Positions 6,597 to 64,000 of a stretch of 64,000 nt of DNA are shown here, in pieces. The notes beneath the pieces were generated by a model. It was not told where the DNA came from and did no database searches. It saw nothing but the letters and a program-made list of their open reading frames with translations. The position numbers and the translations under genes are program-made. The stretch comes from a bacterium (GTDB taxonomy: Bacteria > Electryoneota > JAOADG01). How positions within the stretch are numbered: position 1 is the first letter of the stretch; each line of letters starts with the position of its first letter. The DNA lies in assembly GCA_963681965.1 (NCBI GenBank), contig OY820579.1:3936001-4000000 (forward strand), in the 5' to 3' direction.

Positions 6597-7898
6597 ATGA
6601 CTACAGGACATTCATCCACAACTCTGCGAAAAATTGTGGAAATTACTGCCGGATTCCCGGTGATCTCCGAGACTTTTATCCTTGACATGCTAACCGGACT
6701 GATCGATCGCCAGTTACCAATGGAACATTGGACAACGGATCGTATCGAGCAATCGACGATTCATCCGAATGTTCTTAAATACGATTTGATGAATCGTACT
6801 AAATTCTTAAAAATTCCGCCACTCGTCGGTAATGACAGTGCCTGGACGCTGCAGTTCTGTAGGCTGAACAGCATCGATTCCATCGACACGATCGATGCGT
6901 ACCATGTTCATTTCGGTACGACATTTTTGCGATTGGCACCATATTTCCGGATCAATCAGCAACCGTTAATCGTCTCTTTTCACGGTTTCGATGCGTCGCG
7001 CACATTTCTCGAACTGGGCGACCATTGCTATGACGAATTGTTCGCTCGTGCATCGCTCATCACGACTCCCAGCCATATTATGAAAGCGGCATTGACGTCG
7101 CGCGGCTGCCCCGAACAGAAAATTCGGGTGCATCGCTATGGCATCGATATCACGAAATTTCATCCACAGGAGAAGCCGCTTCGACCCGATCGGATTGAAT
7201 TATTGACCGTCGGTCGGTTTGTTGAAAAAAAGGGGATTGGCGATTCGCTGCGAGCATTCGCGAAGCTTCCGAACCGGGAACGGTGCCGGTATCGGATCAT
7301 CGGCAATGGTCCGTTACTGGAAGAGATGCAGGCGATTATTGCCGAAACCGGGATATCAAAACTAGTTGAGTTATTAGGCGAGAAGACGAGCGACGAAGTC
7401 GCACAAGCAATGCGCGAAACCGACATTTTTATCCTGACGAGTGTCACCGCATCGACCGGCGATCAGGAAGGATTGCCGGTATCGCTAATCGAGGCACACA
7501 CCAATGGTTTGCCGGTTATCAGTACAATCCATGCCGGAATTCCGGAACTGGTCGCGCACGGCGAAACCGGTCTGTTGGCGGCAGAACACGATATCGATAC
7601 GATTGCCTCCCACCTATTCCGTTTGACGGAAGACGATCAACTACGTGCGAATATGGCACGTAACGCGCGAATTCGTGCTGTAAAAGAATTTAATATTGTG
7701 TCATTGAATGATAAACTGGCAGGCTATTTTTTCGAATTGCATGCTCAACATCACGAAGAAGTCGAAGACCCGATCGTGAAGGCGATTGGAATGGCGCAGA
7801 AAGGATATAAACGCGCCGCGAAGGCACAACTGGAACGATTGCTGACCGATCCGGTGTATGGCGAAGCAGCAGTAAAAGCACTTGCAGATCTAGAGTAA
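6597..7898 (+). CDS. GT4 glycosyltransferase (WcaL-like)
   Basis: FPVISETFI, HVHFG, SFHGFD, VGRFVEKKG, DQEGLPVSLIEA, HAGIPELV. Confidence 0.9.
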   Translation: MTTGHSSTTLRKIVEITAGFPVISETFILDMLTGLIDRQLPMEHWTTDRIEQSTIHPNVLKYDLMNRTKFLKIPPLVGNDSAWTLQFCRLNSIDSIDTIDAYHVHFGTTFLRLAPYFRINQQPLIVSFHGFDASRTFLELGDHCYDELFARASLITTPSHIMKAALTSRGCPEQKIRVHRYGIDITKFHPQEKPLRPDRIELLTVGRFVEKKGIGDSLRAFAKLPNRERCRYRIIGNGPLLEEMQAIIAETGISKLVELLGEKTSDEVAQAMRETDIFILTSVTASTGDQEGLPVSLIEAHTNGLPVISTIHAGIPELVAHGETGLLAAEHDIDTIASHLFRLTEDDQLRANMARNARIRAVKEFNIVSLNDKLAGYFFELHAQHHEEVEDPIVKAIGMAQKGYKRAAKAQLERLLTDPVYGEAAVKALADLE

Positions 7899-7913
7899 TT
7901 CGGTGTGCTTATT

Positions 7914-10328
7914 TTAAGGTTTTTGGAGCAGGATCTTCAATCCGGTGGTTGCCAAATCGTCGTCGGATAACGATTGAAAGAGAGGTAATAGTTTCGATTT
8001 GAGATCTTGCGGAAGGGTACTGTCGGAAATACTCTCTTCCGATAATACGACATAACCGGTCGATTTCGCCAATTCGAGGATTTGCGATTTCCGCAATTTA
8101 TTGCTGACGCTATGTGGGTCATCATCTTCGCACGTTAAGAACGACCAATAGTGATATCGTTCCGGTTCGGAATAGACGCGATGATCGACCAGATCGATTT
8201 CGTGATAGGACAATCCGCCCGACGGCTGCATTTTGAAGAGCGTGGCAAATACCTGCGATAAATCGGTACAGTGTTCGAGCACTGCAGTAGAATTGATTAA
8301 ATCGATACTCTCCGACTGATATCGCCCCGGATAACCAGCATCCCCGACTTGATAATGAATCGGAACCGCGGCAATTCCCTGTTCCGGTTTGCCATCTTTC
8401 AATGCCGCTAAATTGAATTCACGAATCCGGCGTTCGTAATCGACTAAATCGATTTCCTCCTGCCACCACTCCTGCGGATGTGCCAATGCCGCAAGCAACT
8501 CGTCGTAGAGCGCTTCGGCTGCGCGTTGTGGTTCAGCATGATCGTCATCGATCGCGTAACAGGTACCGGCACCATTGATAAAGAAGAAGGCGATTGTGCC
8601 GTACGGATGATAATGACCACATCCGAGATCGAGATATTTTTTTCCGGTTATGGAAGTATGGGCATGAAATTGATCGTAGACTTTTTTCGAAACTTTGAGT
8701 ACCCGATCGGGACCGTGCCGCCAGCGCTCCGACACCGATTGCAGGTAGCGTCGGGAAGTGGTAAAGACGGCATCCATCGCATTCCAAGTGAATGGGTGAT
8801 CGCGTTCGGACAACTGTCCGACATAATCCACGATCTGCACCATATTCTCTTCAGTCATCCGATTAACCGGCTTGGGCGTTTGAGGTGCAAACACAATTTC
8901 CGATTCAATGCGGTCGAACAATCGCTCATATTCCGAGAAGTGGTAAACTCGCTCGGATTCGACGATGGGTTCTGCCGGTTGATTCAGTAACTCCTTGACC
9001 AGCGCCAAAGCATTCGCGTGCTCGCGCAGAGGAATATAGGTCGAGAAGGGATAGCACTCGGCAATGGTCTCCGGCGAATCGGGCAAGAACGGTGAACAGA
9101 ACAAACCGATCTTGCGGGTGAACATAGAAGCTTCCATCACCATCGAACCGGGCGATGCCAATATCACATCGGCAACAGAAAAGAGATCGTATTTCCGGTC
9201 GCTGCTAGCAATGAAAGTACGGATACTATCGGCACGGTGATTGGCAATATCTTCGTAACCGGGGTGAGGTCTGATCAGAATCTGGATATCGTCCGAGGAC
9301 TGAATTAATGCGTCGATCAGCCAGTATAGATTCTGATAATCCTGTTTCCCGCTCGTGACAATCAGGACGACACGTTTTCCCGTCAAACGGTATTTATCAC
9401 GGATTTCGGCAATATTCGTGGGATCGGGACGATACAAGCGGAATTCCGACATTCCATTGTGATAGGAATTTTCGATGCGGCAAAGTGGATCGTTTTTGGG
9501 AATTTGACGGGTCGGCATACAAAACAGCGAGTAAAACCGATCCAACGACAGGTGCTCTTCCTGATATCTTTGAACAGGTGGCAGTGGCGGGAACGGTTCA
9601 CTGTTCCCGTAATCTTTATAGGCGTGCTGCACTTGAATCACGCCAAAGGGATTGCGCAGTCCGGCAGTGAATTCAGAGCCTCGACCACCGATGATGGCGC
9701 GCACCTGAAAATTAACCGCCAGTGCCTGCTTCAAAACGATATGCTGAAGAATTCCTTCGAGCGAGAGATAGATTGCAGCCAGATCGCGGGCTTCTTCGAT
9801 CCATTCCGCTGGAAACGGAGTCGCTTGAAATAGCTGACCAATCGCTTGCCGGAATAATCGGGTTGCGGTATCGATTTCATGTTGGGTCGGTTTAACCGTT
9901 TCGAAGAGACATTCGTAGGGAATAGTATTTTGGGCAAATCGACTCAGCAGATACTTACTGTCAACAGCGCCACCGGAAGGTTCTTCCAGAATCAAGAACG
10001 TAGAACCGCGACGCGACAGATATTCAAACAAGTCGAGATAGTGCACCGGCTCGACGATATCGGGATCGGTAGTTCGCATCGACGATTTGATGAAGAAGAG
10101 ATAGTCGTAGGATCGGTCGAGTAGCGCGGCTTTCTTTAAGAAATCGGCGCGCCGCACAGCATCGAAAATACGCGCTGGTCCGGGAACTTGCGGATTAAGT
10201 CGATTGATAAAAAGTTCTTTGGCAACATGGTACCACGGGTACCCGAAATGATCGATTCGATAGAGGTTCGTGTGCTCTTCGATGAATTGGAAGAAATTAC
10301 GCAACCGCTCATACGAATCGATTGCCAT
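7914..10328 (-). CDS. Fusion of a GT-B-like capsule/sialyltransferase-type N-domain and a class I SAM methyltransferase
   Basis: N-half IQVQHAY, LIRPHPGYE, ADVILASPGSMVMEA; C-half YLDLGCG, SIDLINSTAVLEH, YHEIDLVDH; start overlaps the pseB stop. Confidence 0.65.
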   Translation of the reverse strand: MAIDSYERLRNFFQFIEEHTNLYRIDHFGYPWYHVAKELFINRLNPQVPGPARIFDAVRRADFLKKAALLDRSYDYLFFIKSSMRTTDPDIVEPVHYLDLFEYLSRRGSTFLILEEPSGGAVDSKYLLSRFAQNTIPYECLFETVKPTQHEIDTATRLFRQAIGQLFQATPFPAEWIEEARDLAAIYLSLEGILQHIVLKQALAVNFQVRAIIGGRGSEFTAGLRNPFGVIQVQHAYKDYGNSEPFPPLPPVQRYQEEHLSLDRFYSLFCMPTRQIPKNDPLCRIENSYHNGMSEFRLYRPDPTNIAEIRDKYRLTGKRVVLIVTSGKQDYQNLYWLIDALIQSSDDIQILIRPHPGYEDIANHRADSIRTFIASSDRKYDLFSVADVILASPGSMVMEASMFTRKIGLFCSPFLPDSPETIAECYPFSTYIPLREHANALALVKELLNQPAEPIVESERVYHFSEYERLFDRIESEIVFAPQTPKPVNRMTEENMVQIVDYVGQLSERDHPFTWNAMDAVFTTSRRYLQSVSERWRHGPDRVLKVSKKVYDQFHAHTSITGKKYLDLGCGHYHPYGTIAFFFINGAGTCYAIDDDHAEPQRAAEALYDELLAALAHPQEWWQEEIDLVDYERRIREFNLAALKDGKPEQGIAAVPIHYQVGDAGYPGRYQSESIDLINSTAVLEHCTDLSQVFATLFKMQPSGGLSYHEIDLVDHRVYSEPERYHYWSFLTCEDDDPHSVSNKLRKSQILELAKSTGYVVLSEESISDSTLPQDLKSKLLPLFQSLSDDDLATTGLKILLQKP

Positions 10329-11371
10329 TATGCCGCACCTCGCGCAACATGATGCACCTGTTCCGAATGATTGTTGCCAGTTTCCGGTTCGCCGTCCGGT
10401 TCGACCAGATTGCGCAATTCCTCATCGGTCAGCCATTGCGAGTTGAAATCGCTGGTGTAATGAAATCCTTCCGGGCACGGTTTTCCGTTCGACCAATTGA
10501 TCGGTTTCCACCACGGGTATGCCGGTCGAATAACGAACATATCGTCCAATTCGACGGTACTTCGCGCTTCATCTTCGCCGATCAATGCCTCGTGCAATTT
10601 CTCGCCTGGTCGGATACCGATATTTTTGACAGCACATTCCGGAGCGACTGCTCGTGCAAGATCGAGAATCTTCATACTGGGAATTTTCGGAATAAATACT
10701 TCACCGCCGTGCATCTGTTCGACGCAGCGAATGACGAACCGGGCAGCTTGATCCAGTGTCAGCCAGAATCGGGTCATCCGATCGTCCGTCACGGTCACTT
10801 CTCCAGTCAATCGTTGCTGTTTGAAGACCGGAATGACACTTCCGCGACTGCCTACAACGTTGCCGTAGCGAACGCAACTGAGCATCGTTTGACCACCACG
10901 GGCATACGAATTACTCTGGATAAACAGCTTTTCGGCACATAGTTTGGTCGCACCGTAAAGGTTGACCGGGTTGACCGCTTTATCGGTACTCAATGCAATC
11001 ACGCGCTCGACTTGACTGTCAATTGCCGCCTCGATCACATTCTTGCCGCCGATAATATTGGTCAGGATTGCTTCCATCGGATTGTATTCGCATGCCGGAA
11101 CCTGTTTTAACGCAGCCGCGTGGATTACCACCGTGACCCCGTTCATGGCGCGCATCAGACGGTCGCGATCACGGACATCGCCGATAAAATAGCGGATGCG
11201 CGAACCGGTTTCGTCGGAATATAGTTGCCGCATTTCATGTTGTTTTAGTTCGTCACGGCTGAATACGATCAATCGTGCCGGACGATACTCTTCCATCATG
11301 ATTTTCGTCAATTTCTTTCCGAGCGATCCGGTACCACCGGTAATCAACACTTGCGCGGACGACCAATCCAT
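10328..11371 (-). CDS. pseB: UDP-GlcNAc 4,6-dehydratase (inverting)
   Basis: GGTGSLG, FSRDELKQ, HAAALKQVPACEYNP, STDKAVNPVNLYGATK, VRYGNVVGSRGSV, GIRPGEKLHE. Confidence 0.95.
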   Translation of the reverse strand: MDWSSAQVLITGGTGSLGKKLTKIMMEEYRPARLIVFSRDELKQHEMRQLYSDETGSRIRYFIGDVRDRDRLMRAMNGVTVVIHAAALKQVPACEYNPMEAILTNIIGGKNVIEAAIDSQVERVIALSTDKAVNPVNLYGATKLCAEKLFIQSNSYARGGQTMLSCVRYGNVVGSRGSVIPVFKQQRLTGEVTVTDDRMTRFWLTLDQAARFVIRCVEQMHGGEVFIPKIPSMKILDLARAVAPECAVKNIGIRPGEKLHEALIGEDEARSTVELDDMFVIRPAYPWWKPINWSNGKPCPEGFHYTSDFNSQWLTDEELRNLVEPDGEPETGNNHSEQVHHVARGAA

Positions 11372-55416: not shown

Positions 55417-55548
55417 GTATTTAGATAATAATAACAATCACTATTTTATGAGATCATATTGTGATCTCATTCTATATCAGTTATTTTTTATTCTGTATTC
55501 CTATCTCCCACATCTATGGCAATGTACACACTTGAATTGGAGTCGTCG

Positions 55549-57876
55549 ATGCCAAAGAGAATCCTCTGTTTGATTAATACTTTCCTCATTTTGATCGTAA
55601 GCTTGTCGATCTTCGATTCGATGGTATTGGCTCAGGATAGTTCGGGCGTACGTTGTATTCAGCGAATAGTCAATAACAGGTCGGTTAACTTAATAGCTAG
55701 CAATGGCAATTATCTCTGTGCTTTAGTCAATAATCAAGTAAAGATTTTCGATATATCCATTCCGAACCACCCACACGAGATATCTTCGATTCCAATTATT
55801 GGTGACGTAAAAAAATTTATCTTAACATCGAACCGACTTTATCTTGCAAATGATTTCGATGGTATCCGGATTTACAGTCTTACCGATCCATATAACCCTG
55901 CATTGATTACTACCTATCGATTACCAGATACTGCGATAGACATGGCTCTTCAAAACGATCATTTGTATCTAAATATCCATGAACACGGTCTATTAATTAT
56001 CGACGTTGGAGATTCCCAGAATCTTAGATTGTTGGGTAGCTTGGATAGTATCAATTTTGCATATTTTGTGGTGTCAGGTAGATATCTTTATGGAGTTGGA
56101 TGCTGTCTTTGGACTTATGATATCTCAAATCCCGACAGTATACAGCTCATGTCGGAATATGAACTTCCCTACACTTGGGTTTTGGTATCCATCACAAAAG
56201 TCGGATCAAACGTCTATTTAGGGGGTCAAGGAACAGCTTGGTATACTTGTTTCGGCATCTTGATCGGCATCGATGTTTCCGATCCAACTAATCCTGTTGA
56301 GCGCGGTCGTTTTTATGAACCAGCTCAAGGCTCAAGAGAGCAATTGAATTCATATAGTAACATCAACCAAGTAACAAACATTGGAAATAACGTTGTCGTT
56401 TCGGCAGAAATATCCGAACGACAGTACAATGGTTCCTTCAGAACTTCCAATATTGTACAGATCTTGGATATTACAAATCCAGACAGCATCGAATCGAGTT
56501 GGGGAGTGACTTTATACTCCGACACGACATACTACCGGAGTAGAGCTGTTCGTGAGTTATCGGTAACCGAAAGCACTATCTATTGTGCCGAAGGCGAACT
56601 TGGACTCGCGAGTATTCCCACAAGAACAAATTCCTATTCTACGAGTGTACTCTCTTTTCAACCTCGATTGATCACTCACATCGGAAATTATCTCGTTGCT
56701 TCCACCAATAACCAAATCAGCATCTCCGATATCTCTGATCCGGCTCATGCAAGTTTGGATGCTCTCATCGATGTATCGGATTCGATCGAATTTTTGGGAT
56801 CCTTCAACAATACATTACTACTTGGAACGGCACATCGTGATTCTTTATCTGCGATAAATCATGAGATGGTGTTGTATAACTTATCCAACATCAATACACC
56901 GGTCCACCTGAGTAATTGTGAGGTTCCAGCACAAATACAGGATATCGCAATCGACGGCGCTTATGCATATGTTGCCACTGGTGATTCTGGAATGAAAATC
57001 GTAAATATTGCCAACCCACAATCGATACAGATTACTGGATCCATGCCGGTACCAACCGATCAGCTTGAAATCAGTGATCACTATTTATTCGCATTGAACA
57101 AGCATCAATTCCGGAGTTATCGATTGACGGATCCGATTCATCCCGAACTTATCAGCGAATTTTCGGATACGTCGCTGGTTTTTCGTAATCTTGCTGTGAT
57201 CGGCAACCGGCTCTATTATTGCGAGGCAAGTTCCATTTATCATCCCGACCAGAATTACTATAACTCTCAAGCGTTTATTAGAGAATTTAACATCTCCGAT
57301 CCAACCCATCTTGTTCCGATGCGAAGTTATATGTTGGCGGAGTATAATTCAGCCTATCACGCTTTTCTGAATGCCAGATTTCTTATCCCAGCGAGCACAC
57401 ACTTATTCTATCAATCCGATTTTTTGGGAACGATAAATATATTAGATCTTACCCGACCCGATAGCATCAGACGATGTGGTTATTATCATACAAACGGATA
57501 TGGTTCCACTGTGATTGGTAACAATATTTTCTTGACGAGAGATTATTCTATTGACCTCTTTGACTGTTCCCAAGCACTCGGCGTAGTCGATCACCGATCC
57601 GAATCTATTCCGACCACCTTCGCACTCAAACCGAATAACCCGAACCCTTTCAACGCCACAACTGAGATTCACTACACGATTCCAGCGACCGCAAAAGTCG
57701 AGTTAAAAGTATTCGATCTGACCGGGCGCGAGGTTGCAAAGTTAGTCGATTTCAATCAGAATCCGGGCGAGTACACTTACCATTTCGACGGCAAAGCGCT
57801 TGCCTCCGGCACCTATTTTGTGAGGTTGAAAGTAGGTGCTTTCATGCAAACGCAGAAAATAATTTTATTGAAGTAA
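55549..57876 (+). CDS. Secreted LVIVD-repeat beta-propeller protein with T9SS-type CTD
   Basis: Repeated IFDISIP / IYSLTDP / YDISNP / IDVSDP / IVNIANP; CTD PNPFNATT...SGTYF...KIILLK; start placed at ATG 55549 after GGAG. Confidence 0.85.
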   Translation: MPKRILCLINTFLILIVSLSIFDSMVLAQDSSGVRCIQRIVNNRSVNLIASNGNYLCALVNNQVKIFDISIPNHPHEISSIPIIGDVKKFILTSNRLYLANDFDGIRIYSLTDPYNPALITTYRLPDTAIDMALQNDHLYLNIHEHGLLIIDVGDSQNLRLLGSLDSINFAYFVVSGRYLYGVGCCLWTYDISNPDSIQLMSEYELPYTWVLVSITKVGSNVYLGGQGTAWYTCFGILIGIDVSDPTNPVERGRFYEPAQGSREQLNSYSNINQVTNIGNNVVVSAEISERQYNGSFRTSNIVQILDITNPDSIESSWGVTLYSDTTYYRSRAVRELSVTESTIYCAEGELGLASIPTRTNSYSTSVLSFQPRLITHIGNYLVASTNNQISISDISDPAHASLDALIDVSDSIEFLGSFNNTLLLGTAHRDSLSAINHEMVLYNLSNINTPVHLSNCEVPAQIQDIAIDGAYAYVATGDSGMKIVNIANPQSIQITGSMPVPTDQLEISDHYLFALNKHQFRSYRLTDPIHPELISEFSDTSLVFRNLAVIGNRLYYCEASSIYHPDQNYYNSQAFIREFNISDPTHLVPMRSYMLAEYNSAYHAFLNARFLIPASTHLFYQSDFLGTINILDLTRPDSIRRCGYYHTNGYGSTVIGNNIFLTRDYSIDLFDCSQALGVVDHRSESIPTTFALKPNNPNPFNATTEIHYTIPATAKVELKVFDLTGREVAKLVDFNQNPGEYTYHFDGKALASGTYFVRLKVGAFMQTQKIILLK

Positions 57877-57909: not shown

Positions 57910-58266
57910 ATGGCTTCAGCATTTCTAGTATTATTCTCAATTATTCTCACGGTCGCGATCAAACTCGGCATCGTGTGGGCTTCCATTCTGTGGGGCGTTC
58001 AGGATAACAAACTGGAATTCAAGCATATTGTCTACATCGCGTTGGTCGTGTATCTCCCGGCAGCAATGATCGCTGGATTATTAGAAAAAACCATCGGTGA
58101 AGTGCCTGCGATGCTCCTTGAATTTGTCCTGCGCACGTTGGCACTCTATCTGGCAACGATGAATATGTATTCGCGCGACGCCGTCCTTAAAATCATCATC
58201 GCATTTGTACCACTGACGATCGTCGCGAAGCTATTTTTTAGTGCGATCAAATATTTTATCGGATAA
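57910..58266 (+). CDS. Small hydrophobic membrane protein (about 4 TM), function unknown
   Basis: 118-aa ORF made almost entirely of hydrophobic helices. Confidence 0.7.
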   Translation: MASAFLVLFSIILTVAIKLGIVWASILWGVQDNKLEFKHIVYIALVVYLPAAMIAGLLEKTIGEVPAMLLEFVLRTLALYLATMNMYSRDAVLKIIIAFVPLTIVAKLFFSAIKYFIG

Positions 58267-58270
58267 GAAA

Positions 58271-58298
58271 AACGGGAGACTGCGATGAGCCTCCCGTT
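58271..58298. terminator. Hairpin between convergent genes
   Basis: AACGGGAG-actgcgatgagc-CTCCCGTT. Confidence 0.5.
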
Positions 58299-58355: not shown

Positions 58356-59609
58356 TTAATCGTCGATAAAAAACTGGCGCGACGATTTCATCACTTTATC
58401 CCACAAGAATGTACCACGCTCGATTCCGAAAATGAATAGATAATTGTCGATGTGGACGCGTGCCGACTTCCACGAAGTCAGTTGCGCCACTTTATTTACC
58501 CAATTATCGTACTCCGCCTCATTGCGCGTTCGCAACGCCATCATCAACGCTTTTCGATTCGTCTGATCGAGGAATGTCTCTTTCCACGTCCCCTTCGGTT
58601 CGAAGACTGCGCCTACTTTCGGTGCTGCCGGTGCTGCCGGAGCAGTTGGTGCTTGTGGTGGAGTTGCCGCTACCGGAGCGGGTTTCGGTGGTTCCGGCAC
58701 GGGTGCTGCCGGTTTCGGAGCCATGGCTGGAGGTGGTGTCATCGCCGGTGGCTTCACTGCCGGAGTTGCCACTGGTGCCGGTCGCGGTGGTGGCGGTGGC
58801 GGCGGAACCGGACGTGTTGGTGTGGAAACACCTAATCCAAACGCATCATCTTCATCGATCTTGGCTGGCTCTGGCGGCTTCGCTGTCATCGGTGGCGGTG
58901 TCTGCGCTGGTGCCGGTCGTGCCGCTGGTGCAGGTGCCTGTGCAGGTGCTGCCGGCATTACCGATTCCAGCGGTTCTTCGGTCGTCGTGCTCAGGTCGTG
59001 GAACGAACCACCCGAAATCATCTTGCGGGTGACAACGTAATCTTTCCGCAATGCATTATAGCGCGCCATAATCAGCGCGAGATCGTCGACACCGATCGCA
59101 TTCATTCCGAGCGATTCTTCCAACCGCACCACATCGGCAAGCACTTTCACTTCCGACATATTCAACACGGTGGCGATCACACCGGGTTCCAGCGTCGTTC
59201 CACTGAAACCAAGACCAGTCGCGCGTTCGAAGACCTGTTTTGCCAAATCGATCGAATCGGCTTCCAACCCGCGCAAATCGATCGGGTTGTCCGACCAGGT
59301 TGTACGCACTTGATCGAATGACTTTCCAACCGCTTCCTGCAATTCATTTTGCGAAAAGGTGAACGCATTGAGAATCGCTTCGACGACTGCTTCACGCGTT
59401 TTGGCATCGACCAATGCAACATCGAATTGCGGGAGTGTCAGCAAGCGATCGATTTCGGCTTCTACCGACTCTTTCGCTTTCGCCGACAGTCGGTCGCGCA
59501 CCTCAGGCGACTTGTTCCATTGCGTCAATTCGCGGTACGGAAGACTCGCTCTCCCTTTCAGTAAATCGTCGATCCAGCCGGCAGGTACGGTTTGTTGTGA
59601 CACGCCCAT
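58356..59609 (-). CDS. Hypothetical protein: helical N-domain, long Pro/Ala linker, small helical C-domain
   Basis: 417-aa ORF with GGAGG Shine-Dalgarno; polyproline-rich middle; last gene of the mgl-like operon. Confidence 0.85.
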   Translation of the reverse strand: MGVSQQTVPAGWIDDLLKGRASLPYRELTQWNKSPEVRDRLSAKAKESVEAEIDRLLTLPQFDVALVDAKTREAVVEAILNAFTFSQNELQEAVGKSFDQVRTTWSDNPIDLRGLEADSIDLAKQVFERATGLGFSGTTLEPGVIATVLNMSEVKVLADVVRLEESLGMNAIGVDDLALIMARYNALRKDYVVTRKMISGGSFHDLSTTTEEPLESVMPAAPAQAPAPAARPAPAQTPPPMTAKPPEPAKIDEDDAFGLGVSTPTRPVPPPPPPPRPAPVATPAVKPPAMTPPPAMAPKPAAPVPEPPKPAPVAATPPQAPTAPAAPAAPKVGAVFEPKGTWKETFLDQTNRKALMMALRTRNEAEYDNWVNKVAQLTSWKSARVHIDNYLFIFGIERGTFLWDKVMKSSRQFFIDD

Positions 59610-59631
59610 AGATTTGTCCTCCTAATCGCTA

Positions 59632-61560
59632 CTACGAATTCGGATGTTTAGTTTGATATTTATCGCGAATTGATTCTAATTGAAGTATGTCTAGATGATC
59701 GACGCCGACATAAGCCACGATCTCGACCCCTTGCGCGACTTCCTTCTCATTGACCCCTTTCAGGATCTGCATCACGCATTCGATCGGAACTTGCGTCTCC
59801 GGCATTCCCATCTCGAGAATGAATCCTTCCAACCGGCGGAATTGTCGGATCACCAATTCCCAGCGGCGTTTGATCGGCATTCCGTCGATATATTCCATAA
59901 AAGACGATTTGAGATTGGCATCGGAATAACCGGTCTGAATGGTTTGCGAAAGAATCGTCCGAAATTCCGGATCGATCTGATCGCGGGTAATAATTTCGTG
60001 CAATGCAGCTTCGATCGATTGATAGTTCGTTAATCGATTGCAGAACGCTGTCAATGTCGGTAATGGTTCCAGAACCAGTCCGATTTCCAATGCAATCGCG
60101 CGCCGAACGAGTTCCATCCATTCCCGTTTCGTTACCATCCGCTTCTTCGCCAGATGATTGCGCAACTGCATCAGGATCGATCTGCTCTCTTCGTCATGCA
60201 GATCGAAGGCATGCGTCAATTTTCCGATCGTGCCGTCGACATCTTCGGTCATCATCAAAACGACCCAGCTCCCAATTCGCGGAGGTATTTTCGCCATCGG
60301 AATTTTATCGATCGGAAGCGATTCGACTTTATCCTGCCAACTCTCCTTGGCAAGGTCGTGCATCTTGACAAATAGCTCGGCAATTCGCTCGGTCGTTCGA
60401 AAATCCTGCATCTCCTCGCGATGTTCGCGTACTTCCGGTTTATTTGCCGGACGTTCCGCTACTGCCGGCGGGGGGGTACGCGGTTGCATAACCGGTTGCG
60501 GTGCCGGTTGAGCTGCGGGTTGCGGCATCGGATGCACCGGCGGCGGAGTGGGAGCGGAAACCGGCATCGGTTGGCGCGCGGTTTTCGATTGAATCGTTTC
60601 CGCCGACAACGGCGCTGCGAACGAGAAGCGTTTGGATTCCGAAACTGGTTCCTGCAATTCCTGCGGAGCAATTTCATCGAGTGCCGAAAAGGTCTCGATC
60701 GGCGGTGTCGTCACTTCGGGTTTTCGATACGGCGTGTTGATCGACGTCTTCTTGATACTGGTAACCGGTTCGATGAATTCGATGTCGTTGTTTTCGATGT
60801 CGTCTTCACCGAGTAATTCATCGGAAGCACTCGCTTCGTCCGATACGCGCGCCGCATCGATGACCAGCGTTTGCCATTGCTTGCCGATCGTCTTTTGGGT
60901 GCGGACATACGGACCGACCGTAAATTTTCCGCCGGGCCATTGAAACATTTCGTAGAAGGCATCGACACCGACATTCGCAACCGTTTTCGCGTGGATGATG
61001 ATACCATTGTCGATTGCGATGATTCCTTCATTGCGACCGGAATTCACTTTCAACGTAGATTTTCGACCGCTGATTCCGAGTAGCTGAATCACCTCCGCCA
61101 TGTGCAGTTGTCCGACAATCCCCTCGAATCCACTCTTATCCTTATCGGAAAGAATGTTGGTTACTTCGCGTCGCAGCAATTCGAAATCGAATGGTTTCTC
61201 GATATAGTGTACTGCGCCGAGTCCGTAACTTCGGGTACGCAACTCGGGGCTGGAGAATCCGGTCATGACGATGAATTTGATATTGGGATGTTCTTGCTGC
61301 ACCCGCACCATTAAATCCAAACCGGACAGATTCGGCATTCGGATATCGGTGATAATTACTTCGACTTCAGGATTTTCCCGAATGATACTCTCGACTTCCA
61401 ACGGGTCGGTAGAATAAAGCGTCTCGATATTTTCGTCGATCGAGTCGAATAGTCCCCGCAACGCGAGTACGATATCCTCCTCGTCGTCGACGACGATAAT
61501 TTTATGGAGGGGAACGTCTTGATCGTTCGGGTCCGGAATTTTTCTCAGTCGATTTGGCAT
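59632..61560 (-). CDS. Response regulator: REC + DUF4388/PatA-N + Pro-rich linker + helical C-domain
   Basis: VVDDE, ITDIRMP (phospho-Asp), MTGF, IEKPF; GFEGIV.QL...EVIQL..GIIIHA..GVDAFYEMFQWPGGKF. Confidence 0.88.
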   Translation of the reverse strand: MPNRLRKIPDPNDQDVPLHKIIVVDDEEDIVLALRGLFDSIDENIETLYSTDPLEVESIIRENPEVEVIITDIRMPNLSGLDLMVRVQQEHPNIKFIVMTGFSSPELRTRSYGLGAVHYIEKPFDFELLRREVTNILSDKDKSGFEGIVGQLHMAEVIQLLGISGRKSTLKVNSGRNEGIIAIDNGIIIHAKTVANVGVDAFYEMFQWPGGKFTVGPYVRTQKTIGKQWQTLVIDAARVSDEASASDELLGEDDIENNDIEFIEPVTSIKKTSINTPYRKPEVTTPPIETFSALDEIAPQELQEPVSESKRFSFAAPLSAETIQSKTARQPMPVSAPTPPPVHPMPQPAAQPAPQPVMQPRTPPPAVAERPANKPEVREHREEMQDFRTTERIAELFVKMHDLAKESWQDKVESLPIDKIPMAKIPPRIGSWVVLMMTEDVDGTIGKLTHAFDLHDEESRSILMQLRNHLAKKRMVTKREWMELVRRAIALEIGLVLEPLPTLTAFCNRLTNYQSIEAALHEIITRDQIDPEFRTILSQTIQTGYSDANLKSSFMEYIDGMPIKRRWELVIRQFRRLEGFILEMGMPETQVPIECVMQILKGVNEKEVAQGVEIVAYVGVDHLDILQLESIRDKYQTKHPNS

Positions 61561-62057
61561 TAAAGATCCAGCGGCTCGTCACCGCCCCCCCGTATGGCGT
61601 CGACAATATCCTTCCACTTTCCCTTCTGAGGATCGATATCGGCGTCAGCCTGTTGACTTCGTTCAGTAATGATTTCGCCGATTTGCAGCGCAATCTTCTC
61701 CGAATACATTTTCACCATTCCCAATGTGGTTGCTTCATTGAAGATCGCAACCAGCAGATGATCGGTAGTCAATTTTACGACAAATATTCCGTTCTTTTCC
61801 CCTTTCCAGAACGTCGATTCGAAATTCGTTTCGCCGGCAACTTTCGCCGTTTCCTTGGCGGCGCCGAACGAAGCGGCGATCAGGGTTGCCAATCCGATCG
61901 GATCGGTCAGCTCGCTCGAACCGACTCGGGCATAGATATAGCCATCCTCACCGATCAACAGCGCCGTCGAAGCTTGTGCCTCTTCGATCAGTACCGTGAG
62001 ACAGGTGGTTATGACTACAAGAGTCGATTCGTCGATGGTCGTGTCGCGGATAATCAC
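61560..62057 (-). CDS. mglB: MglB-like Roadblock/LC7 protein
   Basis: ALLIGEDG, LATLIAASFGAAKETAKVAGE..F...F.KGE, LVAIFN..TTLGMVK; directly downstream of mglA. Confidence 0.85.
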   Translation of the reverse strand: MIIRDTTIDESTLVVITTCLTVLIEEAQASTALLIGEDGYIYARVGSSELTDPIGLATLIAASFGAAKETAKVAGETNFESTFWKGEKNGIFVVKLTTDHLLVAIFNEATTLGMVKMYSEKIALQIGEIITERSQQADADIDPQKGKWKDIVDAIRGGGDEPLDL

Positions 62058-62059
62058 GG

Positions 62060-62827
62060 TTACTTGCCCTTACCGAATAACCGACCAAGCCATGCGAACA
62101 TGCCGGGTTTCTTAGCCGGAGCTGCCGCTTTTTCTTCCGGTTTGGCTGCCGGTGCACTCTTCGGTTTTCCGATCGTGGTCGATGGTGTCGGCGGCACTTC
62201 GGGTGCTGGTGCCGATGCTGCAGCAGCATCGACTTCGGCGAAAATTGTTCGTTTGAAATCTTCAATCACACAGGTAGTGATCGCTTTCAACGTATCGAAT
62301 ACCCCTTGTCCGGTCAGCGCTACCGCCTCGACAAACGGCAATCCCTTCGAATTCAATTCGATATTAAGAATATCGAGTGGAATTACGCCTGGGATGTCAC
62401 GCTTGTTGAATTGAAACACGAGTGGAATCGTATCGGGATTCATTTTCAGTTCGCGCAAGTTCGCCATCAAATTTTCGAGACTCTCTTTGTTCTCGGCGAT
62501 TTTTCCATGCTGCGAATCGGCAACGAAAACGATGCCGTCTGCACCCTGCAACACGAGTTTCCGCGACTGGTTGTAATAAACCTGACCCGGAACGGTGAAG
62601 AGTTGCATGCGCAACGAAAATCCCTTCACTTTTCCGATTTCCAGTGGAAGTAAGTCGAAGAACAACGTGCGATCCTGCTGGGTTGCAACTGAAGACAATT
62701 CGCCTCGTTTATCGGCGGGTAGCATTCGATGAATCGTCTGAAGATTCGTGGTTTTACCGCATAGCCCCGGTCCGTAATAAACGATTTTACATTCTAATTC
62801 GCGTTTTGCATAATTGATGGTTGCCAT
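62060..62827 (-). CDS. mglA: MglA-like small GTPase with C-terminal extension
   Basis: Start revised to ATG 62827; KIVYYGPGLCGKTTN, DRTLFFD, TVPGQVYYN..RKLVL.GADG.VFVADS, NKRD, GQGVFDTL. Confidence 0.93.
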   Translation of the reverse strand: MATINYAKRELECKIVYYGPGLCGKTTNLQTIHRMLPADKRGELSSVATQQDRTLFFDLLPLEIGKVKGFSLRMQLFTVPGQVYYNQSRKLVLQGADGIVFVADSQHGKIAENKESLENLMANLRELKMNPDTIPLVFQFNKRDIPGVIPLDILNIELNSKGLPFVEAVALTGQGVFDTLKAITTCVIEDFKRTIFAEVDAAAASAPAPEVPPTPSTTIGKPKSAPAAKPEEKAAAPAKKPGMFAWLGRLFGKGK

Positions 62828-62858
62828 ATCGGATCCTCTGCAAGATCGGTTGAGTTGC

Positions 62859-63212
62859 TTACTCTCGTGAATAATTGCCAATACTATCCAATCGCGTTTG
62901 AAGCGAACCGGCAAGTGCCAGTAGCTGACCGTAATTGGCGTTGGGTTCGGTTATTGCCGTTAGCAGCACCGAACCGCCATCGACGGTCACGACCGTTCGA
63001 TCGTCCAACGTCAGCAGCATCGTGCGGTAGTTGTCGTCGTCGATCTGCGCCAATGCGGTTCGCAAATCGTTGGCATAATTCGCCAGCCGCGGACCCAAGT
63101 GGTCGGTCTTCGATTCCGGAAAATGCTCGATCACAATTCCATCCCGGTCGATTAACTCGACTTCAAGGATGCCGTCCGCTGTAATAAAACTATTGAAAAA
63201 AGAATTCTTCAT
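62859..63212 (-). CDS. Roadblock/LC7-like protein (MglC-like)
   Basis: GILEVELIDRDGIVI...ANYGQL; size and alpha/beta pattern of the Roadblock fold. Confidence 0.65.
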   Translation of the reverse strand: MKNSFFNSFITADGILEVELIDRDGIVIEHFPESKTDHLGPRLANYANDLRTALAQIDDDNYRTMLLTLDDRTVVTVDGGSVLLTAITEPNANYGQLLALAGSLQTRLDSIGNYSRE

Positions 63213-63221
63213 ACCCTTAAC

Positions 63222-63596
63222 TCATAATTTGATGAGTGGTAGTAAAAAACGTGCCGTCTGCTGGCTCAGTTTCCAGGAATGATCCACTTCCGTATTCCAG
63301 CAATAGACAATCAGGTATTCGCGATAAACCAAACAATGCAATTGCGTCGATGGAAGCGATACCGAGAATTGATCGAACGCTTTCTCGGAATGCTCACTCG
63401 CGGTTCGCAATACCCGTAAGTACCGGATCGCTTGTCCGGCGACCGTCAGCTGTTCCTGACGCTCCATCGATCCGCATTGAAGAACCGGAAGTCCTACCGC
63501 CGAAACGATCATCACATGACGCATTCCCGGTTTTCCGGTAATCGTCGCAAGCACCGATTCCAGCGATTTGGGCGGAAAGAGGCGCCAGTACCACAT
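63222..63596 (-). CDS. Divergent Roadblock/LC7-like protein
   Basis: LESVLATITGKPGMRHVMIVSAVGLPV resembles the Roadblock N-terminal alpha-beta-beta unit; start revised to ATG 63596. Confidence 0.55.
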   Translation of the reverse strand: MWYWRLFPPKSLESVLATITGKPGMRHVMIVSAVGLPVLQCGSMERQEQLTVAGQAIRYLRVLRTASEHSEKAFDQFSVSLPSTQLHCLVYREYLIVYCWNTEVDHSWKLSQQTARFLLPLIKL

Positions 63597-63597
63597 T

Positions 63598-64000
63598 TTA
63601 TAAGCCTTCCAGGAAATTGGTAAAGCTGCTGACTTCTTGTTCTGCCAATTGCGCAATGTCTTCAGCCTTCGTCAGCAATCCTTCCTTGTTCATCAGATGC
63701 AATCGCTCGATCGCTTTCAACCATTCGTCACCGGTTAACGATTCGCCGCGAAGTTTCGCTTCCACATTGATCGCGTGAACATAACCGCCTAATCCGCGAT
63801 CGGTCAACATTTCCGCGATATCTGTCGATATAAATTTTCCGTCCCACTCTTTATCGCGTGCAAGCAACGTGGAAATGTCGCGGACAATTTCCTTGATTCC
63901 ATTCAATGGTTGCGCTGCATACGATTTCTCGACGGCATTCGAAATCGATACTTGAAATTCCCGTCGCGAGAGTTTCAGTTGCGGTGAATCCTGCAAGAAC
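63598..64000 (-). CDS. Hypothetical helical protein, C-terminal part only (runs off the right end)
   Basis: Open frame to the window edge; stop 1 nt before the next start codon. Confidence 0.75.
   Translation of the reverse strand, partial: FLQDSPQLKLSRREFQVSISNAVEKSYAAQPLNGIKEIVRDISTLLARDKEWDGKFISTDIAEMLTDRGLGGYVHAINVEAKLRGESLTGDEWLKAIERLHLMNKEGLLTKAEDIAQLAEQEVSSFTNFLEGL

What the first reader, a model, noticed from the sequence alone, without database searches (positions are those of the whole stretch)
58356..64000. Expanded MglA / triple-Roadblock / REC-DUF4388 operon: candidate undescribed cell-polarity or GTPase signalling module outside myxobacteria
Seen: seven tightly packed minus-strand genes (gaps of about 30 nt or less, one TAATG overlap): helical protein, two divergent Roadblocks, MglA with intact DRT, TVPGQ and NKRD motifs, MglB, a REC-DUF4388-Pro-rich protein and a Pro-rich protein. 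Known: in Myxococcus xanthus MglA (GTPase), MglB (GAP), MglC and RomR (REC + Pro-rich linker) set leading/lagging pole polarity, and eukaryotic Rag/Ragulator also uses multiple Roadblocks. Inference: this is a self-contained polarity or localisation switch with its own scaffolds in a probable FCB-group host. No histidine kinase lies in the visible part.
Basis: partly seen in the sequence, partly recalled or inferred. Interest (0 to 1): 0.82.

Follow-up and report, generated by a model that had tools for sequence, protein, structure and literature searches.

The report
Expanded MglA GTPase switch operon
A real nine-gene operon joins a Ras-like MglA GTPase with a membrane-binding tail to four Roadblock proteins, a kinase-fed PATAN response regulator and three copies of an unnamed helical domain; it is a lineage-specific form of a widespread, untested bacterial switch that most likely steers type IV pili.

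Summary
All seven minus-strand genes exist, are tightly packed, and carry the stated domains and motifs. The operon continues past the window: the helical protein is 289 aa, and upstream lie a fourth Roadblock-fold ORF (117 aa) and a soluble PAS-PAS histidine kinase. That makes nine genes, ending at a terminator-like hairpin.

- **Conservation.** The gene order recurs in four families of the host's unnamed phylum, but patchily: MglA was found in 12 of 41 genomes.
- **New details.** MglA carries a Pro/Ala linker and a tail resembling the MinD membrane-targeting sequence. An unnamed helical domain occurs three times: stand-alone, at the C-terminus of REC-PATAN, and at the N-terminus of the Pro-rich protein.
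- **Likely output.** Among the 80 loci with the most similar MglA, 46 hold a PATAN gene. In 18 (labelled Zixibacteria or Ignavibacteria, or unnamed), pilB-pilT-pilC follow mglB directly. I therefore favour control of type IV pili.

The MglA/MglB/PATAN association and two-MglB systems are already in print (2006, 2014). This scan had 53 earlier notes of the kind on other DNA. My verdict is a new variant of a known, uncharacterised kind. Interest 0.5.

The parts
58271..58298 (-). Terminator-like hairpin closing the operon
   Evidence: an 11-pair stem with 6 G-C pairs followed by a T-rich tail, at L002 2298-2271. This lies about 58 nt after the stop of the last gene. It is a consensus match only.
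58356..59609 (-). 417-aa protein: N-terminal helical ('Hel') domain, a linker of about 135 aa (33% Pro, 22% Ala), and a conserved C-terminal domain of about 70 aa
   Evidence: - ORF. No Pfam family.
- The N-terminal profile (A7) matches the Hel289 profile (A6) by hhalign at 94.4% probability, E 8.5e-8, over 198 columns.
- The C-terminal residues 337-397 match the C-termini of proteins P0024, P0026, P0028, P0031 and P0034. Those proteins' N-termini match the Hel profile.
- Linker composition.
- Orthologues sit after REC-PATAN in G003, G036, G009 and G006.
59632..61560 (-). Response regulator, 642 aa: REC, PATAN (DUF4388), Pro-rich linker, C-terminal Hel domain
   Evidence: - Pfam Response_reg 1.3e-19 (residues 21-133) and DUF4388 7.9e-14 (residues 147-243).
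- The acidic pair, the phospho-acceptor Asp (IITDIRMP), the Thr (VMTGF) and the Lys (EKPF) are visible in the translation.
- The C-terminal profile A8 matches the Hel289 profile at 98.8% probability, E 1.2e-16, over 252 columns.
- It is the only DUF4388 match in the genome.
61560..62057 (-). MglB (Roadblock-fold GAP partner), 165 aa
   Evidence: - Pfam Robl_LC7 5.8e-7, 29.6 bits against a cut-off of 23.
- NCBIfam MglB model 1.9e-15, 57 bits against a cut-off of 200.
- It follows mglA by 2 nt. Its stop overlaps the next gene's start in TAATG.
62060..62827 (-). Group 1 MglA GTPase, 255 aa: G domain plus a Pro/Ala-rich extension of about 60 aa ending in a basic amphipathic tail
   Evidence: - Pfam Arf 1.5e-5.
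- P-loop, DRT (intrinsic Arg beside the G2 Thr), TVPGQ and NKRD are invariant among 8 relatives.
- The tail ...GMFAWLGRLFGKGK is conserved in kind in relatives.
- It is the only MglA match in the genome with this query.
62859..63212 (-). Roadblock B, 117 aa (MP1/LAMTOR3-like by Pfam)
   Evidence: -: MAPKK1_Int 1.9e-7 and Robl_LC7 3.7e-6, both above cut-off.
- 8 of 9 family members match Robl_LC7.
- Profile A2 matches PDB 7f8m (Thorarchaeota Roadblock) at 1e-7 and MglB 6h5b at 2.3e-4.
63222..63596 (-). Roadblock A, 124 aa (divergent)
   Evidence: - Pfam Robl_LC7 is only 0.098 / 0.072, below cut-off. 3 of 9 family members match weakly.
- Profile A1 matches nine Roadblock / dynein LC7 chains at E 1.4e-6 to 0.0024 over nearly full length.
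- Its start or stop abuts or overlaps that of Roadblock B in relatives.
63598..64000 (-). Hel289: stand-alone helical-domain protein. It continues to window-equivalent position 64467 (289 aa). Upstream of it, outside the window, lie a 117-aa Roadblock-fold ORF and a 635-aa PAS-PAS histidine kinase.
   Evidence: -, in L002 coordinates: Hel289 at 7598-8467; the small ORF at 8477-8830; the kinase at 8847-10754, with PAS, HisKA and HATPase_c.
- No Pfam family for Hel289.
- AlphaFold2 model: pLDDT 89.2, pTM 0.82.
- Small ORF: model pLDDT 77.7. Foldseek's listed hits are Roadblock-fold chains, best E 1.6e-3, TM 0.41-0.55.

Best explanation
This is a nine-gene operon, about 8.4 kb long, that encodes a complete small-GTPase signalling module.

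**Shown**
- It contains a Group 1 MglA, an MglB, three further Roadblock-fold proteins, a canonical REC-PATAN response regulator, a soluble PAS-PAS histidine kinase, and three proteins that share one unnamed helical domain.

**Inferred mechanism**
- The kinase senses a cytoplasmic signal and phosphorylates the REC-PATAN protein.
- MglA cycles between GTP and GDP under MglB (the GAP), with the extra Roadblock proteins acting as modulators or scaffolds. They probably work as dimers, and Roadblock A-B may form a heterodimer.
- MglA sits on the inner membrane through its MinD-like C-terminal amphipathic tail, at the end of a flexible Pro/Ala linker.
- The helical domains and the PATAN domain link the switch to its target.
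- The most likely target is the type IV pilus motor (PilB/PilC/PilT). The module would then set where or when pili are made, that is, surface-motility polarity or reversal.
For: **Domain identities and packing**
-.
- Group 1 signature (TVPGQ and an Arg next to the G2 Thr): sequence; definition in PMC4316618.
- Roadblock status of the small ORFs.

**Conservation of the order Hel289-RoblA-RoblB-MglA-MglB-REC-PATAN-ProRich**
- Found in G003, G036 and G009. G006 has the same order without the two small Roadblocks.
- A variant, X160-RoblA-RoblB-MglA-MglB-REC-PATAN, is seen whole in G023, G039 and L027. Only its front part (no REC-PATAN) is visible on the cut contigs of G019 and G035.
- The MglAs of this phylum form one clade in a quick tree: 10 rows, SH-aLRT 99.

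**Kinase to regulator**
- The kinase lies in the same gene string in G000 and G003.
- The REC domain has all its phospho-acceptor residues.

**Membrane tail**
- Long MglA goes with the mglA-then-mglB order in 54 of 55 complete cases. Short MglA goes with mglB-then-mglA in 19 of 19.
- Tails in the loci with pil genes read like GFFKRLFG or GFLKRLFG, against the E. coli MinD membrane-targeting sequence KGFLKRLFGG (PMC5471200, passage).
- Tails in loci labelled Planctomycetota are hydrophobic.
- No protein of the operon has a transmembrane-like stretch.

**Pilus link**
- 18 of 80 MglA loci have pilB 4-141 nt after mglB, followed by pilT, pilC and a PilS-like kinase. That is 18 of the 62 loci with at least 2.5 kb of downstream DNA.
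- 46 of 80 loci hold a PATAN-domain ORF.
- G000 has a type IVa pilus cluster (PilM, PilO, secretin, PilB with MshEN, PilC, PilD) and a PilT-sized ATPase.
- In Synechocystis the PATAN domain binds PilB1 and is sufficient to reverse phototaxis (bioRxiv 10.1101/2021.06.11.447907, abstract).

**Roadblock A-B pairing (weak support only)**
- Score 0.58 (median of three runs); best of 3 controls 0.00.
- The mark was reached by 116 of 157 solved complexes and 2 of 215 mismatched pairs. At 0.60 or under, only 18 of the 157 solved complexes and both passing mismatches reached it.
- The runs agree in at least 85% of contacts, and the partner's pLDDT is at least 65.
- Roadblock dimers are solved, so the pass may come from memory.
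Against: - In G000 the pilus genes lie about 3.6 Mb away from the operon.
- PilM was found in 39 of 41 genomes of the phylum sample, but MglA in only 12 of 41. Module and pili therefore do not co-vary.
- The same-genus genome G001 (96% complete) and the same-family genome G002 (100% complete) have PilM but no MglA match.
- The PATAN-PilB interaction is shown only for cyanobacterial PatA-type proteins, whose domain order (PATAN then REC) is the reverse of the one here.
- The kinase is linked to the module only in family f1.
- The membrane role of the tail rests on motif likeness and a hydrophobic-moment estimate, not on an assay.
- The Hel domain has no recognisable fold relative, so its role is a guess.
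Confidence: 0.6

Rival explanations
1. The same GTPase switch controls another polar or membrane process, such as gliding or type IX secretion placement, cell division or a developmental programme. The pilus link in other phyla would then be a lineage-specific wiring.
For: - The operon is unlinked from pil genes in G000 and in every locus of its phylum that I examined.
- The module is patchy while PilM is near-universal.
- A type IX secretion cargo gene lies next door.
- Group 1 MglA neighbourhoods vary widely (PMC4316618).
- Earlier notes of this scan report MglA/Roadblock/PATAN sets beside chemotaxis, DnaA-like or ParA-like genes (I did not check these).
Against: - The only direct contextual clue I have is pilB-pilT-pilC after mglB, in 18 of 80 loci.
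- The only experimental knowledge of PATAN points to pili.
- No gene of another machinery is conserved beside the module in this phylum.
Confidence: 0.25
2. A Ragulator-like membrane platform. The four Roadblock proteins form two dimers that tether and regulate the membrane-bound GTPase as a signalling hub unrelated to motility, for example nutrient or redox sensing through the PAS kinase.
For: - There are four Roadblock-fold proteins.
- Roadblock B matches the MP1/LAMTOR3 Pfam family in 6 of 9 members and LAMTOR5 in 6 of 9.
- The small ORF's model aligns with LAMTOR2, MP1 and p14 chains.
- MglA carries a membrane tail.
- There is weak support for Roadblock A-B pairing (score 0.58, best control 0.00, with the caveats given under the best explanation).
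Against: - There is no LAMTOR1-like anchor.
- MglA has no C-terminal Roadblock domain as Rag GTPases do.
- The likeness is at fold level, which all Roadblock proteins share.
- No nutrient-sensing or transporter gene is conserved in the module.
Confidence: 0.1
3. The extra small ORFs are decaying duplicates of mglB without function, and only MglA/MglB and the response regulator matter.
For: - Roadblock A and the 117-aa ORF are very divergent: 12-21% identity to their orthologues.
- G006 lacks both small Roadblocks.
- The own copy of the 117-aa ORF has a shortened, low-confidence middle.
Against: - The reading frames are intact and the genes are tightly coupled.
- They keep their order across families f1, f2 and f3.
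- The profiles still recognise Roadblock structures.
Confidence: 0.05

Closest known systems
Myxococcus xanthus polarity module (MglA, MglB, MglC, RomR/RomX, RomY)
   Same: - A Group 1 MglA with TVPGQ and an intrinsic Arg.
- An MglB Roadblock partner.
- Extra Roadblock paralogues, as MglC is one.
- A REC protein with a Pro-rich linker.
- A probable role in pilus polarity.

Sources: PMC4316618 passages; listings and abstract starts of PMC4719450, PMC7949163, PMC9481161 and PMC10329633; abstract of PMC13408092.
   Different: - The gene order is mglA-mglB, not mglB-mglA (the Myxococcus order is recalled).
- MglA has a 60-aa linker and a membrane tail.
- There are three extra Roadblocks, all in the operon.
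- The REC protein carries PATAN and a Hel domain, whereas RomR as I recall it has an acidic tail.
- I did not search for RomX or RomY homologues.
- The kinase input sits in the operon, rather than coming from a Frz chemosensory system.
PATAN / MglB / MglA gene neighbourhoods (Makarova et al. 2006; Wuichet and Sogaard-Andersen 2014)
   Same: This is the same co-occurrence of PATAN proteins, Roadblock/MglB and Group 1 MglA. It includes a subset with two MglB-like genes per MglA (PMC4316618).
   Different: - Those surveys, in the passages I read, do not describe four Roadblocks, the MglA membrane tail, the Hel domain or the pilB-pilT-pilC adjacency.
- I did not read their supplementary tables, which may list such loci.
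- Makarova 2006 was not read.
The string PATAN - small membrane protein - TPR-Roadblock - 322-aa membrane protein - Roadblock - long MglA - MglB - PilB - PilT - PilC - PilS, found here in loci labelled Zixibacteria or Ignavibacteria or left unnamed
   Same: - Long MglA with a MinD-like tail.
- The mglA-mglB order.
- A Roadblock gene directly before mglA.
- A PATAN protein and several Roadblock domains in one string.
   Different: - The window's form has no membrane proteins and no TPR.
- Its PATAN is fused to REC and Hel.
- It adds Hel289 and the Pro-rich Hel protein, and has its own soluble kinase.
- It is not next to pil genes.
Cyanobacterial PatA-type regulators (PixE, PixG and others)
   Same: Each is a REC plus PATAN response regulator fed by a kinase. 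The PATAN domain is the output and binds PilB1/PilC (abstract).
   Different: - The domain order is reversed (REC first here).
- There is an extra linker and a Hel domain.
- The protein is embedded in an MglA operon, not a chemotaxis-like one.
Eukaryotic Ragulator-Rag (LAMTOR2-5 Roadblock dimers)
   Same: Several Roadblock-fold subunits sit around a membrane-associated small GTPase. There are Pfam and fold matches to MP1/LAMTOR3, p14/LAMTOR2 and LAMTOR5.
   Different: - There is no LAMTOR1.
- The GTPase is MglA-type, without a Roadblock C-terminal domain.
- The likeness is at fold level only.

Membership tests
Group 1 MglA (Wuichet and Sogaard-Andersen 2014) | G3 motif TVPGQ instead of DxxGQ | tested here: met
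   TVPGQ is present and invariant in 8 of 8 aligned relatives. The definition is in PMC4316618.
Group 1 MglA (Wuichet and Sogaard-Andersen 2014) | Intrinsic arginine next to the conserved G2 threonine | tested here: met
   D53-R54-T55 are invariant in alignment A4.
Group 1 MglA (Wuichet and Sogaard-Andersen 2014) | Coupled MglB within four genes | tested here: met
   mglB starts 2 nt after mglA.
Roadblock/LC7 (Pfam PF03259) | Score above the Pfam gathering cut-off (23 bits) | tested here: met
   MglB scores 29.6 bits and Roadblock B 27 bits.
Roadblock/LC7 (Pfam PF03259): Roadblock A | Score above the Pfam cut-off, or a full-length profile match to solved Roadblock proteins | tested here: inconclusive
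   Pfam gives 12.8-13.3 bits, below the cut-off. The family profile matches nine solved Roadblock/LC7 chains at E 1.4e-6 to 0.0024. Its fold was not modelled on its own.
Roadblock/LC7 fold: the 117-aa ORF upstream of Hel289 | Alpha-beta-alpha sandwich matching solved Roadblock structures | tested here: inconclusive
   - Model pLDDT 77.7, with residues 34-60 weak.
- Foldseek found no hit at E <= 0.001. The listed hits are Roadblock-fold chains at E from 1.6e-3, TM 0.41-0.55.
- hhalign against the Roadblock B profile: 72% probability.
- Pfam finds nothing for the own copy.
PatA-type (PATAN) response regulators | PATAN/DUF4388 domain above the Pfam cut-off | tested here: met
   52.2 bits against a cut-off of 25.
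PatA-type (PATAN) response regulators | N-terminal PATAN followed by a C-terminal REC | tested here: not met
   Here REC is at 21-133 and PATAN at 147-243. The PatA order is taken from the abstract.
RomR | REC, Pro-rich linker and an acidic C-terminal tail, with no PATAN (the architecture is recalled, from no call) | tested here: not met
   REC and a Pro-rich linker are present. However, a PATAN domain follows REC, and the C-terminus is a 250-aa helical domain homologous to Hel289.
Two-component phosphorelay | HisKA with a conserved His plus HATPase_c in the kinase; a phospho-acceptor Asp in the REC domain | tested here: met
   The kinase has HisKA 4.4e-9 and HATPase_c 6e-10, with the H-box AHDIRNP visible. 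The REC residues are visible. Phosphotransfer itself cannot be tested here.
MinD-type C-terminal membrane-targeting sequence | A short terminal amphipathic, basic helix resembling KGFLKRLFGG | tested here: inconclusive
   - The own tail is AWLGRLFGKGK. Relatives have WWKRLFGKGK, GFFKRLFGIK and GFLKRLFGNK.
- The MinD motif is taken from PMC5471200.
- Membrane binding cannot be tested with these tools.
Ragulator (LAMTOR) | A LAMTOR1 anchor and Rag GTPases with Roadblock C-terminal domains | tested here: not met
   MglA has no Roadblock domain, and no operon protein has a membrane anchor. Only fold-level likeness to LAMTOR2, 3 and 5 was found.

The most novel reading that the evidence does not exclude
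Bacteria have a membrane-tethered small-GTPase platform built on the same logic as eukaryotic Ras or Ragulator systems.
- MglA is held at the inner membrane by a flexible hypervariable-like linker plus an amphipathic or tail-anchor end.
- Two Roadblock dimers (Roadblock A-B, and the small ORF with MglB or with itself) act as its scaffold and regulators.
- A new helical domain, present in three paralogues, serves as the effector adaptor that reads the GTP state and recruits the PATAN output to the pilus motor.
Probability: 0.18. Interest if true: 0.8.

Novelty: new variant of a known kind. Interest (0 to 1): 0.5.

Why it matters
MglA is the best-studied bacterial Ras-like polarity switch, but almost all of that knowledge comes from Myxococcus.

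- **A second, widespread design.** This locus and its relatives show a long MglA with its own membrane anchor, encoded before mglB. It is surrounded by several Roadblock and PATAN proteins and, in some phyla, is fused into the pilus motor operon.
- **A testable route.** That gives a path from a small GTPase to PilB/PilC that does not depend on Myxococcus-specific effectors.
- **An evolutionary question.** It offers a prokaryotic case for how membrane anchoring and Roadblock scaffolds of small GTPases arose.
- **A new domain.** The unnamed helical domain, in three paralogues of one operon, is a clean candidate for a new GTPase-effector or adaptor domain.

Tried and rejected
- **Single-sequence search with Roadblock B.** Over 41 related genomes it found only G000. 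This reflected divergence, not absence: profiles and synteny later found orthologues.
- **The search for related loci with the Hel289 alignment.** It failed for lack of a conserved stretch. I used the MglA alignment instead.
- **Word-based homologue search for Hel289.** It gave only 3 proteins. The exhaustive profile search gave 44.
- **Fold of Hel289.**
  - Foldseek's best hits were EF-hand proteins at E 0.015, TM 0.26.
  - VIA-align over 48,161 chains gave a best Z of 7.1 (rmsd 3.0, 80 residues aligned, ScpA N-domain). The tool's own note says this is within the range of chance for helical models.
  - The ESM Atlas gave no usable hit.
  - I assign no fold.
- **A c-di-GMP link.** An HDOD gene and a REC-HD-GYP gene lie divergently next to the operon. 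The HD-GYP domain recurs in none of the other loci, and HDOD recurs only in G036. My earlier 'RECHDGYP' labels were matches to REC only. I dropped this link.
- **Co-variation of module and pili.** PilM is in 39 of 41 genomes, so the test is uninformative.
- **An internal MinD for comparing tails.** No match reached the MinD cut-off in G000.
- **Hel HMM against the proteins of the loci with pil genes.** No hit. The 322-aa membrane protein there has no Pfam family, and its C-terminus looks Roadblock-like only by eye.
- **MglA tree.** The careful search did not finish, so only the quick tree was used. Long, mglA-first MglAs do not form one clade in it (11 changes).
- **Host phylum.** The loci of its relatives are labelled only 'uncultured bacterium', so I could not name it.

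Full report
**1. The observation**

The window is G000:C1:3936001-4000000 of a single-contig genome of 4.24 Mb. Pfam and NCBIfam confirm their identities:
- REC (1.3e-19) plus DUF4388/PATAN (7.9e-14) in the 642-aa protein.
- Robl_LC7 (5.8e-7) and the NCBIfam MglB model (1.9e-15, below its cut-off) in the 165-aa protein.
- An Arf/Ras-type G domain in MglA.
- MAPKK1_Int (1.9e-7) and Robl_LC7 (3.7e-6) in the 117-aa protein.
- Only a sub-threshold Robl_LC7 hit (0.098) in the next small ORF.

Alignment with relatives places the MglA start at the ATG at 62827, giving 255 aa. It places the Roadblock A start at 63596, giving 124 aa. With these starts the gaps are 1, 9, 31, 2 and 22 nt. There is also one TAATG stop/start overlap between mglB and the REC-PATAN gene. 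DRT, TVPGQ and NKRD are present and invariant among eight relatives.

**2. What lies beyond the window**

I fetched 19 kb around the window's end (L002; window coordinate = L002 coordinate + 56000). On the same strand:
- The helical protein is 289 aa (Hel289).
- Nine nucleotides upstream a 117-aa ORF ends.
- About 13 nt upstream of that ORF a 635-aa histidine kinase ends. It has two PAS domains, HisKA and HATPase_c.
- No protein of the string has a transmembrane-like stretch.

A strong terminator-like hairpin follows the last gene (a consensus match only). The unit is therefore nine genes over about 8.4 kb. An HDOD gene and a REC-HD-GYP gene are transcribed divergently from the kinase.

**3. 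Are the small ORFs Roadblocks?**

- **Roadblock B: yes.**
  - It passes two Pfam cut-offs.
  - 8 of 9 family members match Robl_LC7, 6 of 9 match MAPKK1_Int and 6 of 9 match LAMTOR5.
  - Its profile matches an Asgard Roadblock (7f8m, 1e-7) and MglB structures at 2.3e-4 and weaker.
- **Roadblock A: very probably.**
  - It fails Pfam on its own (3 of 9 members match weakly).
  - Its nine-sequence profile matches nine solved Roadblock or dynein LC7 chains at E 1.4e-6 to 0.0024, over almost its full length.
- **The 117-aa ORF: probably, with a degenerate middle.**
  - It has positional orthologues of 113-170 aa in relatives (alignment A5).
  - 3 of 11 members touch Robl_LC7 weakly.
  - hhalign against the Roadblock B profile gives 72% probability.
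  - An AlphaFold2 model (pLDDT 77.7, pTM 0.68, residues 34-60 weak) finds no Foldseek hit at E <= 0.001. The listed hits are Roadblock-fold chains (Asgard Roadblocks, MP1-p14/LAMTOR, dynein LC7, HBXIP) from E 1.6e-3, with TM 0.41-0.55.

So the operon holds four Roadblock-fold genes. In this genome Pfam Robl_LC7 and DUF4388 match nowhere else.

**4. Conservation**

A single-sequence search with Roadblock B found only G000 among 41 genomes, which was an effect of divergence. MglA was found in 12 of 41 genomes of the phylum sample, G000 included. It was not found in the same-genus genome G001 (96% complete) or in the same-family genome G002 (100% complete). In G003 it is 70% identical.

After fetching the neighbourhoods and labelling ORFs with phmmer and profile HMMs, the picture is:
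- **Full order.** Hel289-RoblA-RoblB-MglA-MglB-REC-PATAN-ProRich recurs in G003 (family f1), G036 (f3) and G009 (f2).
- **G006 (f4).** It has the same order without the two small Roadblocks.
- **Variant.** G023, G039 and L027 carry X160-RoblA-RoblB-MglA-long MglB-REC-PATAN. On the cut contigs of G019 and G035 (all four genomes are in f2) only the front of that string is visible, up to MglB or MglA.
- **Divergent copies.** G020 and G010 carry X160-RoblA-RoblB-MglA-MglB.
- **Kinase.** It is linked to the module only in G000 and G003.
- **Coupling.** Roadblock A and B genes abut or overlap in relatives.
- **Tree.** In a quick tree the ten MglAs of this phylum form one clade with SH-aLRT 99. The careful search was unfinished. 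Rows L001, L014, L015, L095 and L096 were left out. The clade fits vertical descent with losses.

**5. The wider family of loci**

A scan of one genome per species with the MglA alignment kept the 80 best loci. They are labelled Zixibacteria, Ignavibacteria, Fibrobacterota, Planctomycetota, Gemmatimonadota, Acidobacteriota and others.

Two designs separate cleanly:
- mglB-then-mglA with a short MglA of about 195 aa: 19 of 19 cases.
- mglA-then-mglB with a long MglA: 54 of 55 complete cases.

Other counts:
- 46 of 80 loci hold a PATAN-domain ORF within 8 kb.
- In 18 of 80 loci, pilB starts 4-141 nt after mglB. That is 18 of the 62 loci with at least 2.5 kb of downstream DNA. All 18 are labelled Zixibacteria or Ignavibacteria, or are unnamed.
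- In most of these 18 loci pilT, pilC and a PilS-like kinase follow.
- Upstream in the Pfam-checked locus (L033) lie PATAN, a small membrane protein, TPR-Roadblock, a 322-aa membrane protein and a Roadblock; by phmmer labels the same genes recur in most of the 18.

The full set with Hel289, Roadblock A and the Pro-rich protein appeared only in the window's own phylum. Among the 80 loci it appeared only in L015, which is G009 itself. L027 has the variant.

**6. New details**

*(a) The MglA extension.* It ends in a basic amphipathic tail.
- The own tail is ...AWLGRLFGKGK, and G003 has ...WWKRLFGKGK.
- The pilus-linked loci have ...GFFKRLFGIK or ...GFLKRLFGNK.
- This is close to the E. coli MinD membrane-targeting sequence KGFLKRLFGG (PMC5471200, passage).
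- Loci labelled Planctomycetota end in hydrophobic, tail-anchor-like stretches. Fibrobacter copies end in ...ELRPYVPKKK.
- I infer that long MglAs are membrane-tethered. This is not shown.

*(b) The Hel domain.*
- Hel289 has no Pfam family. Its family is rare: 44 proteins at E <= 1e-3 and 19 at <= 1e-30 among 1.84 billion representatives.
- The remote hits are C-terminal domains of PATAN and REC-PATAN proteins (P0035, P0039).
- Other remote hits are N-terminal domains of 420-520-aa proteins. Their C-termini match the C-terminus of the Pro-rich protein.
- Profile-profile comparison confirms the homology. REC-PATAN C-terminus against Hel289: 98.8% probability, E 1.2e-16, 252 columns. Pro-rich protein N-terminus against Hel289: 94.4% probability, E 8.5e-8, 198 columns. 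The two against each other: 65% probability.
- One helical domain thus occurs three times in the operon.
- Its model is confident (pLDDT 89.2, pTM 0.82) but has no clear solved relative.

**7. Mechanism**

*Shown:* the parts list and its conservation.

*Inferred:*
- The soluble PAS kinase phosphorylates the canonical REC domain.
- MglB is the GAP.
- The other Roadblocks act as dimeric modulators or scaffolds.
- MglA works at the membrane.
- PATAN and Hel domains connect the switch to its target.

The Roadblock A-B pair has weak support from the complex test:
- Score 0.58 (median of three runs); best of 3 controls 0.00.
- The mark was reached by 116 of 157 solved complexes and 2 of 215 mismatches. 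At 0.60 or under, only 18 of the solved complexes and both passing mismatches reached it.
- The runs agree in at least 85% of contacts, and the partner's pLDDT is at least 65.
- Roadblock dimers are solved, so the pass may come from memory.

I favour the type IV pilus motor as the target, for three reasons:
- The pilB-pilT-pilC adjacency in related loci.
- The complete type IVa pilus gene set in G000.
- The demonstration that a cyanobacterial PATAN domain binds PilB1 and reverses phototaxis (abstract).

Against this reading:
- The operon is far from the pil genes in this genome.
- PilM is near-universal in the phylum (39 of 41), while the module is patchy.
- The PATAN evidence comes from proteins with the reverse domain order.

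**8. Comparison with what is known**

MglA here meets the Group 1 definition. The association of MglA/MglB with PATAN proteins, and a subset of Group 1 systems with two MglB-like genes, are in print (PMC4316618; Makarova 2006 is cited there and was not read).

Myxococcus has MglC, RomR/RomX and RomY as accessory factors (listings and abstracts), and it has uncharacterised PATAN proteins (PMC11580455). The REC-PATAN-Hel protein is not a RomR. It is not a PatA-type regulator by domain order.

My searches found no paper describing a membrane-targeting tail on MglA, the Hel domain or this operon. The library lacks most subscription journals, and I did not read any supplements.

This scan already holds 53 notes on MglA/Roadblock/PATAN operons in at least 53 other genomes. 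One of them lies beside pilus genes.

**9. Verdict**

This is a real, conserved operon. It is a new lineage-specific variant of a known but experimentally untouched kind of bacterial G-protein module. The parts most worth testing are the MglA membrane tail, the four Roadblocks and the triplicated helical domain.

Noticed in passing
L033:4115-15647 and 17 further loci (L024, L028, L031, L032, L035, L036, L041, L047, L052, L056, L057, L063, L073, L075, L079, L082, L089): A long conserved gene string in genomes labelled Zixibacteria or Ignavibacteria, or left unnamed: PATAN, a small membrane protein, TPR-Roadblock, a 322-aa membrane protein, Roadblock, long MglA, MglB, PilB, PilT, PilC and a PilS-like kinase. 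The GTPase switch is written into the pilus motor operon.
   Followed up: partly
L015-L094: Gene order predicts MglA length. mglA-then-mglB goes with a long MglA (54 of 55), and mglB-then-mglA with a short one (19 of 19). The long tails differ by lineage: MinD-like amphipathic in the loci with pil genes, hydrophobic and tail-anchor-like in Planctomycetota, and ELRPYVPKKK in Fibrobacter.
   Followed up: partly
L011 (G009:C4) and L012 (G019:C123): Two genomes of the window's phylum carry a second, short mglB-mglA pair. It has its own divergently placed REC-PATAN gene and another Roadblock gene, beside the long-MglA operon.
   Followed up: no
P0024-P0031, P0034: A family of 420-520-aa proteins of unknown origin. 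Each has an N-terminal Hel-like domain, an acidic low-complexity linker and a strongly conserved C-terminal domain of about 60 aa, shared with the window's Pro-rich protein. No Pfam family matches.
   Followed up: partly
L009:2150-3619, L010:7213-8796, L027:3468-5198: In family f2 the MglB gene is three times longer (about 490-577 aa) than usual. The extension was not analysed.
   Followed up: no
L002:11377-13408 (just beyond the window, + strand): An HDOD protein and a REC-HD-GYP (c-di-GMP phosphodiesterase-type) protein are transcribed divergently from the kinase. HDOD also follows the module in G036 (L004:14114-15121). The HD-GYP domain recurs in no other locus.
   Followed up: partly
window 55516-57876 (+): A 786-aa LVIVD-repeat beta-propeller protein with a type IX secretion C-terminal sorting domain. 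This fits an FCB-group host.
   Followed up: no
window 57910-58266 (+): A 118-aa hydrophobic ORF without any Pfam family, lying between the secreted propeller gene and the end of the operon.
   Followed up: no
L002:15924-18977 (-): A protein of more than 1017 aa made of about ten repeats of a roughly 100-aa unit (motifs such as NTGN..L.LTG.P and F.V.FTP). It was seen only in the ORF list.
   Followed up: no
G000 genome: No MinD above the NCBIfam cut-off was found in this genome. The MinD-like tail on MglA is therefore not matched by a Min system here.
   Followed up: partly
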